From an archaeon (GTDB taxonomy: Archaea; Micrarchaeota; Micrarchaeia; Norongarragalinales; UBA97), in the NCBI GenBank assembly GCA_020057405.1, contig JAGVFW010000014.1, forward strand, positions 2,867-66,866: 64,000 nt of DNA, in the 5' to 3' direction. Every line of letters starts with the position of its first letter. Positions within the stretch are counted from its first letter, which is position 1. Below, one piece after another: positions 61,022 through 64,000 of this stretch. Both the position numbers and the translations under genes were made by a program. The notes beneath the pieces were generated by a model. That model was not told where the DNA came from and made no database searches. It saw only the letters and a program-made list of their open reading frames with translations.

Positions 61022-61492
61022 CTAGGCGACTCGGGTGCCGAAGTACTTGTTTAGCACAGCCGGGCCTGCGGGACTGGCGAGTAAGGTCTTGTGCCAGGTT
61101 TTTAGGTGTGGCTTGATTTCGGCGATTGTGAACTTGTAAGTTCCTTCTGCGCCCGTAAGCTTGAAAGCCAGGATTGCGTTTCTAAGCTTTTCTGCGCTGA
61201 CGAAGTGAAAGTAGTTGTTGTGGACGAGGACGACGTGGTGGGCGTCATTGTTTCTCCACGCTAAAACGCCGTCGTCAATCTTCTCAAGGCGGAGGGCAAC
61301 GCCCATGCCGTTAACTGATTTAACCTCAACTTTCTTGCCGTTTGAAAGCACAAAATCGTGGCCCTTGGCCTTTCCGGTCGAAACCGCGTTTGGCAGCATC
61401 AACTGGACCTTTTTTTCGGCAGCCCTACCCGCATTCTCAATTTGCCGCTGTATTTTTGGCGTCAATTTGGTTAGCTTTATTCTCGTTGGCAT
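61022..61492 (-). CDS. Putative PD-(D/E)XK nuclease-like protein
   Basis: GRAAE...GHDFVLSNGKKVEVKS; AGGTG RBS. Confidence 0.6.
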   Translation of the reverse strand: MPTRIKLTKLTPKIQRQIENAGRAAEKKVQLMLPNAVSTGKAKGHDFVLSNGKKVEVKSVNGMGVALRLEKIDDGVLAWRNNDAHHVVLVHNNYFHFVSAEKLRNAILAFKLTGAEGTYKFTIAEIKPHLKTWHKTLLASPAGPAVLNKYFGTRVA

Positions 61493-61554
61493 GCAAACAC
61501 CTAGCTCCCCGCCGCTTTAAATAGCTTTGACGACAATATAGTTACGAAATTTAC

Positions 61555-63363
61555 ATGGCTAAAAAGTTTGAGCGCAAGGGCAACAAGCCCGGCGGCTTCA
61601 AGGATAGAGTCGACAAGACTGGCGGAAAGTTTAAGCCCAGCGGCGGCTTCGACCGCCCTCGACCGTCTTACGGCGACAGGCCAAGCGGCGACCGCCCCCG
61701 GCCAGCTTATGGCGACAGGCCGCGCCCGTCTTACGGCGACCGCCCAGGCGGAGACAGGCCCAGGCCAACTTATGGCGAGCGGCGCGAAGGCGGTTTTGAC
61801 CGGCCTCGGCCGTCTTACGGCAGCGACCGACCGCGTCCTTCTTATGGAGACCGGCCCCGGCCATCTTATGGAGACAGGAAGCCTACTTACGGAGACCGCC
61901 GCGAGGGTGGTTTTGACCGTCCTCGACCCTCCTACGGCGACCGAGACCGGCCGCGTCCAGCTTATGGAGACCGACCCCGACCTTCCTACGGCGACAGACC
62001 CCGCCCAGCTTATGGAGACCGCCGAGAGGGTGGATTTGACCGCCCGAGGCGCGATTTTGGCGATAAGCCGCGGTTTGGCAGTGACCGACCGCGTCCGTCT
62101 TACGGCGACAGGCCGAAGCCTGCTTTTGATGCCAAGCCCAGCGTGGGCGACAAACCCAAGCCGGCGTTTGTAGCCAAGCCTGGCGTTGGCGACAAGCCGA
62201 AGCCTTTTGAGAAGCCTGACTTTAGTGATTCTGGCAGGCGCGAGTTTGAGGATAGGGAGAAGAACTTTCACGCTAGCAGCGCTCGGCGTTACGAGCGCAA
62301 GAGTTTTGACCGCAATGGCCCCAGGCGCGACTATGGCGACAAGCCGAGGTATGGCGGTGACAGGCCGCGTTATGGCGACCGGGAAGGTGGGGAAAGGCGG
62401 TCTTATGCGCCTGGCGGTAGTGGTTTTGGCGGTAGGCCGCAGAGGCGTGATTTTGATCGCGGTGGCAGTGGGCGGGCTGGTTTTGAGCGCCGCGAGTCTA
62501 GCCGCGACGAGAAGCCCAAGTTTGACCACGGTGCTAAGGTAGACCCGACGAAGACTGACTTTGGCGGAACTGGCTCTTCTCTTCAAGACAAGCGCATGGC
62601 GCTTCTACAGCGCGCGAAAGAAAGCGTGAAAGAAGCGTTTACCGGCAAGGGAGCTGCCCTGGCGCAGTCAATCCGCGCCCTAGACGACCTTGACTACACT
62701 AAAAGCCTGCTCTTCTCAAGACTCCAAGAATACTACGGCATCCACTTCCCCGAACTCAAGCTCGACAACATGGAAAGCTACGCCAAAATCGCTGCTTTGG
62801 GCGACCGAAAGGGCCTAGACGAAAAGAAACTAGCTTTCCTGGGCCACGGCAAGGCAACCCAAGTGGTTAAATTGGCTGAAAAGAGCTTTGGCTCGGACTT
62901 GACGAAGGAAGAAATGGAGTCAGTCCAAAACTTTGCAACCGCCCTAGTAACTGCGAGCGAATCGCGAGAAAAAATGGCGAAATTCATCGACGAAGAAGCC
63001 AACCGCGTCATGCCCAATGTTACTGCATTGACCGACGCCTTCCTCGCCGCACGCTTCCTCTCACTCGCCGGCTCACTCGAGAAGATGGCCCGCATGCCCT
63101 CAAGCACGATTCAAGTCATGGGCGCCGAAACCGCCCTCTTCATGCACTTGCGCTCCCACGGCAGGACTCCCCCGCCCAAGCACGGCATCATCTTCCAGTC
63201 GGCTCTCGTCAGGGGCGCTCCCCTAGAACAGCGCGGCAAGATTGCAAGGGCATTGGCTGGAAAGATTTCCATTGCGGTCAAGGCAGACGCTTACACTGGA
63301 AACTTCATCGCAGAGAAGTTGAAGAAGGATTTGGATGAAAGGCTGAAGGAGATTAGAGGCTAG
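61555..63363 (+). CDS. nop5: Nop5 (Nop56/58) C/D RNP protein with ~340-aa N-terminal low-complexity repeat domain
   Basis: QSIRALDDLD, YGIHFPEL, MPSSTIQVMGAETALF, PKHGIIFQ, RGKIARALA in the C-terminal 260 aa. Confidence 0.92.
   Translation: MAKKFERKGNKPGGFKDRVDKTGGKFKPSGGFDRPRPSYGDRPSGDRPRPAYGDRPRPSYGDRPGGDRPRPTYGERREGGFDRPRPSYGSDRPRPSYGDRPRPSYGDRKPTYGDRREGGFDRPRPSYGDRDRPRPAYGDRPRPSYGDRPRPAYGDRREGGFDRPRRDFGDKPRFGSDRPRPSYGDRPKPAFDAKPSVGDKPKPAFVAKPGVGDKPKPFEKPDFSDSGRREFEDREKNFHASSARRYERKSFDRNGPRRDYGDKPRYGGDRPRYGDREGGERRSYAPGGSGFGGRPQRRDFDRGGSGRAGFERRESSRDEKPKFDHGAKVDPTKTDFGGTGSSLQDKRMALLQRAKESVKEAFTGKGAALAQSIRALDDLDYTKSLLFSRLQEYYGIHFPELKLDNMESYAKIAALGDRKGLDEKKLAFLGHGKATQVVKLAEKSFGSDLTKEEMESVQNFATALVTASESREKMAKFIDEEANRVMPNVTALTDAFLAARFLSLAGSLEKMARMPSSTIQVMGAETALFMHLRSHGRTPPPKHGIIFQSALVRGAPLEQRGKIARALAGKISIAVKADAYTGNFIAEKLKKDLDERLKEIRG
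61642..62115 (+). repeat. Coding tandem repeat (DRPRP[S/A/T]YG)x12 with RREGGFD spacers
   Basis: Counted from translation; synonymous divergence between units. Confidence 0.9.
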
Positions 63364-63373
63364 ACGTGGTTTT

Positions 63374-63898
63374 TTGGAATCCACCAAACGAGTTTTAAGT
63401 AAAGATGAGATTAAGCGACTAGAAAAACTATTGCGCCTCTCTTTTCATAGTATTAGAAAAATAAGAGATTCGGACACGTTAGCGAGTGCAATACAGTATC
63501 CAAAAATTCCGGCTATTTTTTCGGAATCACTAATAATTCAAGCTTCAAAAAAGATTTTTGGACCTAAGTACAACGCCAAGCCTGGAGGAAAGCAATGTGA
63601 CATAGAACTTTCTTCTAAAGGAAAGCAAAAACTTAAAGTCGAAATTAAGGCTACAGGCGACAGTAGTTTCCAGTATTTTGGAGAAAAAGACATTAATGCA
63701 GACTATTTGGTTTGGGTTTCTTTTGGCAGCTACTTCAAAAAACAAAGGCCCAAAACAACTATACAAATATTGATTTTATCTCAACCGAACAAAATATTTT
63801 TTAAACCAACTAAAATAACTCTCAAAAATTTCATCAAAATAAGTAAAAAACACATCAAGACAAAGCACTATAAAAACACGGCTCAACTATTAAGTTAA
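63374..63898 (+). CDS. Low-GC PD-(D/E)XK restriction endonuclease-like protein
   Basis: SESL...CDI....KVEIKATG; AT-rich composition. Confidence 0.6.
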   Translation: MESTKRVLSKDEIKRLEKLLRLSFHSIRKIRDSDTLASAIQYPKIPAIFSESLIIQASKKIFGPKYNAKPGGKQCDIELSSKGKQKLKVEIKATGDSSFQYFGEKDINADYLVWVSFGSYFKKQRPKTTIQILILSQPNKIFFKPTKITLKNFIKISKKHIKTKHYKNTAQLLS

Positions 63899-63908
63899 AG
63901 GGAAAACC

Positions 63909-64000
63909 ATGGAAGTGCTTTCAAAACTCCGCGACGGACGAATTAATGCAGACAATATACTAATCGAGCTTACAATTAAAGAGTACCTTGAACTCGCAGA
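63909..64000 (+). CDS. Partial CDS of low-GC island (3'-truncated)
   Basis: ATG 63909, open to window end. Confidence 0.55.
   Translation, partial: MEVLSKLRDGRINADNILIELTIKEYLELA

What the first reader, a model, noticed from the sequence alone, without database searches (positions are those of the whole stretch)
61555..63363. Nop5 fused to a ~340-aa Arg/Gly/Tyr/Asp repeat domain: candidate condensate-forming C/D RNP scaffold in an archaeon
Seen: one uninterrupted ORF with a TATA-like box (CTTTAAATA at about 61515). Residues 1-342 are low complexity: 12 RPRP[SAT]YG units, three RREGGFD spacers, KPAF/GDKP repeats, then RGG/YGG/FGG motifs. The Nop coiled-coil and Nop domain follow. Repeat units differ at synonymous sites, arguing against an assembly artefact. 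Established: canonical archaeal Nop5 has a folded N-terminal fibrillarin-binding domain, while eukaryotic nucleolar fibrillarin and Gar1 carry RGG/GAR tails, and Arg-Tyr sticker patterns drive phase separation. Inference: most of the folded NTD appears replaced by an RNA-binding disordered region that might concentrate RNA-modification machinery in a nucleolus-like body. No fibrillarin gene flanks it in this window.
Basis: partly seen in the sequence, partly recalled or inferred. Interest (0 to 1): 0.85.

Follow-up and report, generated by a model that had tools for sequence, protein, structure and literature searches.

The report
Archaeal Nop5 with long disordered tail
This is a real gene for the scaffold protein of the archaeal RNA-methylating particle (Nop5) that lacks its usual enzyme-binding head and instead carries a 342-residue floppy arginine/proline/tyrosine repeat tail, a kind of appendage that recent papers describe as absent from archaeal particles of this type.

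Summary
Window 61555-63363(+) is one open 602-codon frame: residues 1-342 are an Arg/Gly/Pro/Asp/Tyr repeat region predicted disordered, and residues 343-602 are a high-confidence Nop5 coiled-coil plus Nop domain. Repeat units differ almost only at synonymous sites, and a TATA-like box lies 39 nt upstream. So the upstream ATG, not the public 406-aa GTG call, is the likely start.

The fibrillarin-binding N-terminal domain (NTD) is missing, but the tail did not replace it. The NTD is missing in every sampled genome of the class (81 of 81 by NF011121; 0 of 101 phylum genomes over the cut-off for PF21572). 67 of 102 relatives have neither NTD nor tail.

Similar tails occur at the N terminus in 13 of 102 relatives and at the C terminus in 22 of 102, with at least 14 state changes on the core tree. 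Near-identical DRPRPS[YF]G repeats decorate bacterial RNA helicases, pseudouridine synthases and rRNA methyltransferases.

Best reading: a non-specific RNA-tethering, possibly self-associating tail on the box C/D particle. Condensation is untested, and how fibrillarin is recruited is unexplained.

The parts
61516..61523 (+). TATA-like box TTTAAATA, 39 nt upstream of the ATG
   Evidence: There are 3 TTTAWATA in the window (0.94 expected), and each lies 39-45 nt upstream of a long-ORF start. That it acts as a promoter is inferred, not shown.
61555..63363 (+). Complete coding sequence of 602 codons plus stop: NTD-less Nop5 (aNOP56) with an N-terminal disordered tail
61555..62580 (+). Tail, aa 1-342: Arg/Gly/Pro/Asp/Tyr-rich low-complexity region, predicted disordered
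   Evidence: Composition and Uversky-type charge/hydropathy calculation. AlphaFold2 pLDDT is mostly below 50 with no secondary structure except aa 225-243.
61555..61602 (+). Lys/Phe-rich distal tip, aa 1-16 (M-A-K-K-F-E-R-K-G-N-K...)
   Evidence: A K/R+F cluster is found at the free end of 7 of 12 N-terminal tails and 15 of 22 C-terminal tails, against 77 of 295 interior windows. In a related metagenome contig the 2 listed differences here (codons 17 and 18) are both synonymous.
61651..62106 (+). Block of 12 D-RPRP[SAT]YG units with 3 RREGGFD spacers (aa 33-184)
   Evidence: unit positions and codon table; periods 24 and 54.
62104..62205 (+). GDKPKPAF / AKP repeats, period 42 nt, 2.4 copies
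62143..62145 (+). GTG (Val197) used as the start in the public 406-aa gene call; probably not the true start
   Evidence: P0002 is 100% identical and 406 aa long. The repeats upstream of it show protein-level constraint.
62227..62283 (+). Only predicted helix inside the tail (aa 225-243), at modest confidence (pLDDT about 67)
62329..62580 (+). Proximal R/G/Y/F/E part of the tail (aa 259-342), holding the few RGG/YGG/FGG motifs
   Evidence: 7 of 9 listed differences in related contigs at codons 327-342 are synonymous.
62596..62598 (+). Internal ATG (Met348), at the position where tail-less orthologues begin; a possible alternative start
   Evidence: No AT-rich promoter-like sequence precedes it (read).
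62581..63360 (+). Folded core, aa 343-602: coiled-coil plus Nop domain
   Evidence: Pfam Nop at aa 376-598, E 1.9e-52. NF011121 profile positions 125-377. Solved S. solfataricus and P. furiosus Nop5 chains at E about 1e-54. pLDDT 87-98.

Best explanation
The ORF encodes the single Nop5 (aNOP56) scaffold of the box C/D methylation particle of a small-genome archaeon. By the names of its nearest homologues it is a Micrarchaeota, in the DPANN group.

The protein is translated from the ATG at 61555. It consists of a 342-residue intrinsically disordered tail built mainly of D-R-P-R-P-S-Y-G units, followed by a conventional coiled-coil plus Nop (L7Ae/K-turn-binding) core. The fibrillarin-binding N-terminal domain is absent, as in the whole phylum.

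The most likely role of the tail is a non-specific, multivalent RNA-binding tether, with two tails per Nop5 dimer. It would raise the particle's affinity for, and dwell time on, rRNA and guide RNA, and may promote annealing. It may also self-associate through Arg-Tyr/Phe contacts.

Shown: the anatomy, the absence of the NTD, predicted disorder, protein-level constraint, recurrence in relatives and on bacterial RNA enzymes.

Inferred: RNA binding, any condensation, and that the particle still recruits fibrillarin.
For: Identity of the core:
- Pfam Nop, E 1.9e-52.
- NCBIfam aNOP56 profile positions 125-377, E 1.7e-78.
- Solved Nop5 chains at E about 1e-54, against Prp31 at about 5e-15.
- It is the only Nop-domain match in the genome.
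- Fibrillarin and two L7Ae-family matches are present in the genome.

Translation of the tail:
- The 12 repeat units vary almost only synonymously.
- TATA-like box 39 nt upstream.
- Related proteins begin with the same kind of K/F-rich N terminus.
- 32 of 37 listed differences in related metagenome contigs are synonymous, including 2 of 2 at codons 17-18 and 7 of 9 at codons 327-342.

Disorder:
- pLDDT below 50 over most of aa 1-342, against 87-98 in the core.
- Mean hydropathy 0.29, below the charge/hydropathy boundary of 0.45.

Recurrence:
- All 7 genomes of the same family carry N-terminal tails. One of the seven (G005) was set by hand, because its frame runs off the contig edge (see Tried and rejected).
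- Over 102 genomes, 13 have N-terminal tails, 22 have C-terminal tails and 67 have none.
- The core tree needs at least 14 state changes.

Link to RNA:
- In this genome the other Arg/Gly-rich tails sit on a DEAD-box helicase, ribosomal protein uS2, a Toprim (DnaG-type) protein and a TRAM-domain protein.
- The tail alone retrieves, at E 6e-28 to 1e-9, bacterial DEAD-box helicases (about 70 of 119 listed, by my count), RluB-type pseudouridine synthases (35), rRNA/SAM methyltransferases (7) and others. They carry nearly the same repeat unit.

Partnership with fibrillarin despite NTD loss:
- Fibrillarin is found in 40 of 41 relatives.
- nop5 lies directly upstream of fibrillarin on the same strand in 13 of the 39 genomes that have both.
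- One related protein, P0022, is a Nop core joined by a short R/G linker to fibrillarin.
- The complex prediction of core plus fibrillarin gave weak support: score 0.43, best of 3 controls 0.00. The tool's counts: the mark was reached by 58 of 80 solved complexes and 2 of 110 mismatched pairs, but at 0.60 or under by only 7 of those 80 and by both mismatches. The runs agree in at least 61% of contacts and the partner's pLDDT is at least 89. Nop5-fibrillarin complexes are solved, so the pass may come from memory.
Against: - No RNA or protein data exist. No listed sequencing run holds this organism (shares of 0.08 or less), and none is RNA.
- The low-complexity matches to bacterial tails may reflect composition rather than common descent, and E-values for such sequence are unreliable.
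- The tail is dispensable in evolution. 67 of 102 relatives lack one, and the same-genus genome G001 has a tail of quite different sequence (G 27%, R 12%).
- The tail is 12% Asp with a net charge of only +0.10 per residue, much less basic than classical RNA-binding RGG/GAR tails.
- A strict box C/D guide-RNA pattern found 0 matches in the genome. That is not evidence of absence, but activity of the particle is unconfirmed.
- Additional initiation at Met348, giving a tail-less isoform, cannot be excluded.
Confidence: 0.62

Rival explanations
1. Condensate scaffold. The tail's main function is to drive RNA-dependent phase separation that concentrates the methylation machinery in a nucleolus-like body.
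For: - 64 Arg and 39 Tyr/Phe in 342 disordered residues, regularly spaced.
- Two tails per Nop5 dimer would give multivalency. This is inferred from the coiled-coil dimer of solved Nop5.
- Several other RNA-handling proteins of the genome carry R/G tails that could co-condense.
- Bacterial RhlE tails promote phase separation (abstract of PMC11260450).
Against: - Nothing was tested here, and no predictor or assay of phase separation was available.
- The high Asp/Glu content makes the tail a near-neutral polyampholyte.
- Most relatives manage without a tail.
- The cells are presumably very small, which is my inference from the 1.22 Mb genome. The benefit of compartmentation is therefore unclear.
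Confidence: 0.2
2. Neutral low-complexity expansion. Replication slippage in a small-population symbiont produced a tolerated, functionless repeat.
For: - Tail length ranges from 0 to 342 aa and its position switches between the termini, with at least 14 state changes on the core tree.
- The same-genus tail is not alignable with this one.
- Related metagenome contigs show length variants inside the tail. One contig replaces 390 nt with 57 other letters, and another replaces 42 nt with 114.
Against: - The repeat units have diverged at synonymous sites while keeping the amino-acid unit. That indicates age plus purifying selection, not recent slippage.
- The same composition arose at either terminus and ends in a K/R+F tip.
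- The same unit is found preferentially on RNA-modifying and RNA-remodelling enzymes in bacteria.
Confidence: 0.12
3. The tail, or its first 196 residues, is not made. Translation starts at GTG 62143 (the public call) or at ATG 62596, and the upstream open frame is a by-product of GC-rich repeats.
For: - The public gene call is 406 aa.
- Other frames are also open across the repeats.
- Tail-less orthologues start at the position of Met348.
Against: - Synonymous-only variation in units that lie upstream of Val197.
- The TATA-like box is placed for the upstream ATG, and nothing AT-rich precedes the internal starts.
- The N-terminal K/F motif is shared with relatives.
- The changes at codons 17 and 18 in a related contig are synonymous.
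Confidence: 0.08
4. The tail is the substitute fibrillarin-recruiting element of an NTD-less Nop5.
For: - The NTD is missing while fibrillarin is retained.
- In P0022 a short R/G linker joins the core directly to fibrillarin.
Against: - 67 of 102 relatives have no tail. Of those among the 41 relatives searched for fibrillarin, 40 of 41 genomes had it.
- The core alone gave the (weak) complex signal.
- Low-complexity tails of the same kind sit on unrelated bacterial enzymes.
Confidence: 0.05
5. Assembly artefact: a mis-join or collapsed repeat created the long frame.
For: - The region is repetitive.
- No run holding this organism could be laid, so the assembly is unverified.
Against: - The contig is 110,851 nt long.
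- The frame is continuous from a promoter-like site into a conserved core.
- The units are not identical copies.
- Independent assemblies of relatives have the same architecture, for example G004 with 259 aa and G006 with 179 aa.
Confidence: 0.04

Closest known systems
Archaeal Nop5 / aNOP56 (solved in S. solfataricus 3ID5 and P. furiosus 2NNW, 3NMU)
   Same: The coiled-coil plus Nop domain aligns over aa 355-601 at E about 1e-54. It is the single copy in the genome, and fibrillarin and L7Ae are also present.
   Different: The roughly 125-residue fibrillarin-binding NTD is absent. A 342-aa disordered tail is added. The protein scores 264.6 bits against the equivalog cut-off of 452.
Eukaryotic Nop56/Nop58 with disordered KKE/D tails, and fibrillarin/Gar1 with GAR domains
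   Same: A long charged disordered region is attached to a core protein of the RNA-modification particle, with two copies per particle. Passages of PMC11528048 describe these regions as aiding rRNA modification and nucleolar compaction.
   Different: The chemistry differs. This tail is R/P/G/D/Y rich with 7% Lys and 1 RGG. It is N-terminal on Nop5 rather than C-terminal. The eukaryotic proteins keep the NTD. That paper states that both kinds of disordered region are absent from archaeal particles.
Prp31 (U4 snRNP), a Nop-domain protein that does not bind fibrillarin
   Same: A Nop domain plus coiled coil without a fibrillarin-binding NTD (architecture from my own knowledge). The sequence match is E about 5e-15.
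   Different: The sequence is far closer to Nop5 (E 1e-54). The genes for Nop5 and fibrillarin are adjacent in 13 of 39 relatives.
Disordered basic/aromatic tails of bacterial RNA enzymes (RhlE/DeaD-type DEAD-box helicases, RluB-type pseudouridine synthases, SpoU and other rRNA methyltransferases)
   Same: The repeat unit is nearly identical ([DE][RK]P[RKQ]x[SAT][YF]G), with E 6e-28 to 1e-9. The tails are attached to RNA-acting enzymes. RhlE tails aid RNA binding and phase separation (abstract of PMC11260450).
   Different: The host protein and the domain of life differ. Common descent cannot be told from convergence for such sequence.

Membership tests
Archaeal Nop5 / aNOP56 (NCBIfam NF011121; Pfam PF01798 + PF21572) | Nop (L7Ae/K-turn RNA-binding) C-terminal domain | tested here: met
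   PF01798 at aa 376-598, E 1.9e-52, 178.5 bits against a cut-off of 25.4.
Archaeal Nop5 / aNOP56 (NCBIfam NF011121; Pfam PF01798 + PF21572) | Coiled-coil dimerisation domain between the NTD and the Nop domain | tested here: met
   Alignment to 3ID5 residues 126-375 and 2NNW residues 130-376. Long helices at 343-395 and 451-485 with pLDDT above 87. Dimerisation itself was not tested.
Archaeal Nop5 / aNOP56 (NCBIfam NF011121; Pfam PF01798 + PF21572) | N-terminal fibrillarin-binding domain | tested here: not met
   - NF011121 profile positions 1-124 are unmatched.
- PF21572 and PF08156 give no match in the genome at E up to 10.
- My own HMM built from 95 NTDs gave only a glycosyltransferase at E 0.0085.
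- The genome is 90.6% complete, and PF21572 passes its cut-off in only 1 control genome, so a very divergent stand-alone NTD is not excluded.
Archaeal Nop5 / aNOP56 (NCBIfam NF011121; Pfam PF01798 + PF21572) | Curated equivalog score (452 bits) | tested here: not met
   264.6 bits. 0 of 81 class genomes reach the cut-off.
Archaeal Nop5 / aNOP56 (NCBIfam NF011121; Pfam PF01798 + PF21572) | Partners fibrillarin and L7Ae encoded in the genome; physical assembly into a methylating particle | tested here: inconclusive
   - The partner genes are present.
- nop5 and fibrillarin are adjacent in 13 of 39 relatives, but not in this genome.
- The complex prediction gave weak support: 0.43 against a best control of 0.00, with the counts given in the For line.
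- Assembly and activity cannot be tested with these tools.
GAR / RGG domain (as in eukaryotic fibrillarin and Gar1) | Many RGG/RG repeats, strongly basic, few acidic residues | tested here: not met
   1 RGG, 1 RG and 3 GR in 342 aa, with D+E at 16% and a net charge of +0.10 per residue. Some relatives' tails are closer to this type, with RREGG[FY] repeats.
KKE/D lysine-rich domain of Nop56/Nop58 | Lys-rich polyampholyte at the C terminus | tested here: not met
   Lys is 7.3% and the tail is N-terminal.
[DE][RK]P..[SAT][YF]G repeat tails of prokaryotic RNA enzymes (an informal group, not a curated family) | Tandem units of this motif forming a long terminal or inter-domain low-complexity region on an RNA-acting protein | tested here: met
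   12 units plus variants. 738 proteins match at E of 0.001 or better among the 8000 candidates scored. The listed ones are mostly helicases, pseudouridine synthases and methyltransferases with the same unit.

The most novel reading that the evidence does not exclude
Micrarchaeota have rebuilt the box C/D particle. Nop5 lost its fibrillarin-binding domain in the whole phylum, so fibrillarin must be held in a new way. In about a third of lineages Nop5 then gained long multivalent Arg/aromatic disordered tails, two per dimer. In this reading the tails concentrate the methylation machinery and other R/G-tailed RNA proteins on nascent rRNA in a nucleolus-like assembly. That would be an independent prokaryotic invention of the disordered-tail principle of modification particles, which recent papers treat as eukaryote-specific.
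Probability: 0.2. Interest if true: 0.85.

Novelty: new variant of a known kind. Interest (0 to 1): 0.62.

Why it matters
Passages read in PMC11528048 and PMC7194090 state that GAR and lysine-rich disordered regions are absent from archaeal modification particles, and treat them as eukaryotic additions linked to the nucleolus. This gene and its relatives show an archaeal phylum in which the particle's scaffold repeatedly acquired long disordered Arg/aromatic tails.

The phylum-wide absence of the fibrillarin-binding domain of Nop5, with fibrillarin retained and often still in the same operon, contradicts the textbook assembly scheme. It defines a concrete, testable question: how is the methyltransferase recruited?

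The public gene call appears to truncate this protein by 196 residues. Automated annotation may therefore be hiding such tails elsewhere.

Tried and rejected
- **Stand-alone NTD gene.** PF08156 and PF21572 found nothing in the genome. My own HMM of 95 NTDs gave one hit at E 0.0085, which is a family-2 glycosyltransferase. The first version of that HMM was built on a badly cut alignment and was discarded. Across 101 phylum genomes there were 4 sub-threshold PF21572 hits. The two I scanned against Pfam are small Toprim-domain proteins with a homologue next to the Toprim (DnaG-type) gene in this genome. The other two are a 434-aa and a 182-aa ORF that I did not scan against Pfam. I rejected them as an NTD, at low confidence. 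The 74-aa ORF upstream of fibrillarin has no relevant match.
- **Conserved small ORFs near nop5 or fibrillarin.** Clustering the ORFs of 59 loci showed nothing convincing besides antisense shadows.
- **dN/dS against the same-genus genome G001.** Its tail is not alignable and its gene is split over two contigs.
- **Sequencing runs.** No RNA holder is listed. 9 DNA runs hold 0.08 or less of the sampled words. The 4 runs I laid contain only short contigs of relatives at 90-99% identity, and none spans the repeats, so the assembly could be neither confirmed nor refuted.
- **Box C/D guide RNAs.** A strict C/D'/C'/D pattern gave 0 hits in the genome and 0 in 5 shuffles. The pattern is too strict to be informative. 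Rfam was not run.
- **Bacterial-type promoter scan.** Not used, because it does not suit archaea.
- **Literature.** No paper holds Nop5 + Micrarchaeota or sRNP + DPANN. The 2 papers with Nop5 + DPANN + fibrillarin do not describe this: one was read in passages and one was seen as a listing only. Searches on archaea/fibrillarin/GAR domain/phase separation and archaea/RGG/intrinsically disordered/Nop5 listed nothing on archaeal Nop5 tails, judged from titles and abstract starts. Supplements are closed. Supplementary Fig. 1A of PMC11528048, on which its 'absent from archaea' statement may rest, was not seen.
- **Tail tally, choices made by hand.** G100's N-terminal 'tail' was dropped as a hydrophobic false positive. 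G005 was set to N-terminal by hand because its frame runs off the contig edge and near-identical database proteins (P0005-P0007) have the tail. G033 (no match) and G034 and G072 (partial genes) were not included. G001 is counted in the tally but left out of the tree.
Full report
**What is there**

Window 61555-63363(+) is one uninterrupted frame of 602 codons starting at ATG. Pfam places a Nop domain at aa 376-598 (E 1.9e-52). The NCBIfam equivalog model for the archaeal C/D-particle subunit aNOP56 matches aa 352-601, but only with profile positions 125-377 of 417, and scores 264.6 bits against a cut-off of 452. Solved Nop5 chains from S. solfataricus and P. furiosus align from their residue 126 or 130 onward at E about 1e-54. 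Prp31 scores only about 5e-15. So the C-terminal 260 residues are a Nop5 coiled-coil plus Nop domain, and the fibrillarin-binding N-terminal domain (NTD) is missing.

Residues 1-342 hold 12 RPRP[SAT]YG units, 3 RREGGFD, 17 DRP, KPAF/GDKP repeats and a few RGG/YGG/FGG motifs (1, 1 and 2). The composition is R 18.7%, G 16.1%, P 13.7%, D 12.0%. AlphaFold2, run with a 74-row alignment, gives pLDDT mostly below 50 and no secondary structure in 1-342 except a helix at 225-243 (pLDDT about 67). The core scores 87-98. A charge/hydropathy calculation also places the tail on the disordered side.

**Is the tail translated?**

Openness alone is weak evidence, because other frames are open across the repeats. 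The public gene call for this protein is only 406 aa, starting at GTG 62143 (Val197). Four observations favour the upstream ATG.

1. The 12 units, all upstream of Val197, keep the amino-acid unit while using up to 6 Arg codons, 3-4 Pro codons and 2 each for Tyr and Gly. The only residue that varies is S/A/T.
2. TTTAAATA at 61516-61523 lies 39 nt before the ATG. The only two other TTTAWATA in the window lie 40-45 nt before long-ORF starts. Nothing comparable precedes the internal starts.
3. Relatives with N-terminal tails begin with a similar K/F-rich tip.
4. In short metagenome contigs of relatives at 90-99% identity, 32 of 37 listed differences are synonymous, including both at codons 17-18 and 7 of 9 at codons 327-342.

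Additional initiation at Met348 (62596), where tail-less orthologues begin, cannot be excluded.

**Context**

The genome is 1.22 Mb in 17 contigs and 90.6% complete. The nearest homologues are named Micrarchaeota or Micrarchaeia by their sources. The genome has one Nop-domain gene, one fibrillarin gene of 224 aa with no extension on another contig, and two L7Ae-family matches.

**The NTD is missing phylum-wide**

- In 81 of 81 sampled class genomes the aNOP56 model matches only from about position 87-139 onward, and none reaches the cut-off. Three further rows in that table are fragments of genes whose match is split or cut.
- In 101 phylum genomes the archaeal NTD family PF21572 reaches its cut-off in none.
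- Four faint hits were seen. The two scanned against Pfam are small Toprim proteins.
- In the window's genome PF08156, PF21572 and my own HMM of 95 NTDs found nothing credible.

The tail therefore did not replace the NTD.

Fibrillarin is nevertheless kept in 40 of 41 relatives. It lies directly downstream of nop5 in 13 of the 39 genomes that have both. One database protein fuses a Nop core through a short R/G linker to fibrillarin (P0022). It comes from a single cluster and a single contig, so it is weak evidence.

A complex prediction of core plus fibrillarin gave weak support: 0.43 against a best control of 0.00. The tool's counts are that the mark was reached by 58 of 80 solved complexes and 2 of 110 mismatched pairs, but at 0.60 or under by only 7 of those 80 and by both mismatches. 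The runs agree in at least 61% of contacts and the partner's pLDDT is at least 89. It may reflect memory of solved Nop5-fibrillarin complexes.

**Tails in relatives**

From 102 genomes with a Nop core, I scored flanks by a fixed composition rule: windows of 25 aa with at least 84% RKGPSDEYFNQ, at least 16% R+K and at least 8% G, covering 25 residues or more. The result was 13 N-terminal tails, 22 C-terminal tails and 67 without a tail (hand corrections are listed under Tried and rejected).

- All 7 genomes of the window's family have N-terminal tails (69 to 342 aa in the six whose full tail is seen; G005 was set by hand because its frame runs off the contig edge), and the window's is the longest seen.
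- Another family of the order has only C-terminal tails (5 of 5), and a third has both kinds.
- On a maximum-likelihood tree of 101 cores the states need at least 14 changes (shuffled mean 31.3). The window's family forms one N-tailed clade with support 98.
- Sequences turn over fast. The same-genus tail is G/R/F-rich and cannot be aligned with this one.
- The free end of the tails, whether N- or C-terminal, tends to be a K/R+F cluster. This is seen in 7 of 12 N tips and 15 of 22 C tips, against 77 of 295 interior windows. The N-terminal starts were chosen automatically and are crude.

**The same tail elsewhere**

Searching with residues 1-342 alone returned 738 proteins at E of 0.001 or better among the 8000 candidates scored. 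By my count of the 119 listed besides the window's own protein, about 70 are DEAD-box helicases, 35 are pseudouridine synthases with an S4 domain, and 7 are SAM- or SpoU-type methyltransferases. Three have other domains and 4 have none. Those named are from bacteria. Their low-complexity regions consist of nearly the same unit, such as GDRPRPSFGDRP, ERPSYGDRPQRS and DKPKRSYGDKP.

In the window's own genome, R/G-rich tails also sit on a DEAD-box helicase, ribosomal protein uS2, a Toprim (DnaG-type) protein and a TRAM-domain protein.

**Mechanism proposed**

The best-supported reading is an accessory, non-specific RNA-tethering tail on the scaffold of the box C/D particle, present twice per Nop5 dimer. 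Self-association or condensation is a possible further property. Shown here: the anatomy, NTD absence, predicted disorder, protein-level constraint, recurrence, and association with RNA enzymes. Inferred: RNA binding, multivalency, condensation, and continued assembly with fibrillarin.

**Comparison with the known**

The protein is a Nop5 by its core but fails two defining features of the curated family, the NTD and the equivalog score. The tail is not a GAR/RGG domain (1 RGG, 16% acidic residues) and not a KKE/D domain.

Passages of PMC11528048 state that lysine-rich and GAR disordered regions are absent from archaeal modification particles. [quoted passage not shown] My searches found no description of NTD-less or tailed archaeal Nop5. 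I therefore rate it a new variant of a known kind.

**Limits**

- There are no expression data and no reads from the source organism.
- E-values for low-complexity sequence are unreliable.
- The genomes are samples of their groups, and relatives are not independent of one another.
- A very divergent stand-alone NTD cannot be excluded in a genome that is 90.6% complete.

Noticed in passing
window 63364-64000: Directly after the nop5 stop the G+C content drops to 34%, against 56% for the window. The 174-aa ORF at 63374-63898 has no Pfam match. This may be foreign DNA sitting where relatives often have fibrillarin.
   Followed up: partly
window 61022-61492 (-): The divergent upstream neighbour is a 156-aa ORF with only sub-threshold Pfam hits (DUF6998, E 0.013). 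By eye, both it and the downstream 174-aa ORF contain D...E-x-K strings reminiscent of PD-(D/E)xK nucleases. This was not tested.
   Followed up: no
window 62143 (public start of P0002): The public gene call for this protein is 406 aa from a GTG inside the repeats, which probably truncates it by 196 residues. Gene callers may systematically cut such tails.
   Followed up: partly
G000 C11:151504-152925 (L076), C7:13228-13968 (L077), C17:28139-29644 (L078), C17:55030-55506 (L075): Four other proteins of the genome carry Arg/Gly-rich low-complexity segments. They are a DEAD-box helicase (C-terminal), ribosomal protein uS2 (C-terminal), a Toprim/DnaG-type protein (internal) and a TRAM-domain protein (N-terminal). 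All are RNA-associated.
   Followed up: partly
P0022 (513 aa, metagenome protein): A single protein joins an NTD-less Nop core, a short R/G linker and fibrillarin. This places an R/G stretch at the N terminus of fibrillarin, as in eukaryotes. It comes from one cluster and one contig, so a sequencing error is not excluded.
   Followed up: no
L144 1477-1860, L145 1498-1920; G000 C17:27792-28229: Small Toprim-domain proteins (128-146 aa) score faintly against the archaeal Nop5 NTD family (E 0.003-0.01). The one in this genome lies just upstream of the Toprim/DnaG-type gene. This is probably only a fold-level resemblance.
   Followed up: partly
L022 (G036), L019 (G020), L081 (G011) and other C-tailed loci: Where nop5 has a C-terminal tail and fibrillarin follows (for example G036 and G020), the tail-coding DNA lies between the Nop core and fibrillarin. 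Loss of a single stop codon would then create a fibrillarin with an N-terminal R/G tail.
   Followed up: no
window 61604-61647 and 62112-62503 (run X3): Contigs of close relatives (90-99% identity) replace 42 nt with 114 other letters and 390 nt with 57 other letters inside the tail. Tail length therefore varies among near relatives.
   Followed up: no
L001 (G000 C2:1-2551): Fibrillarin starts 388 nt from the end of its contig, and only a 74-aa ORF without a meaningful family match lies upstream. Its true genomic neighbours are unknown.
   Followed up: partly
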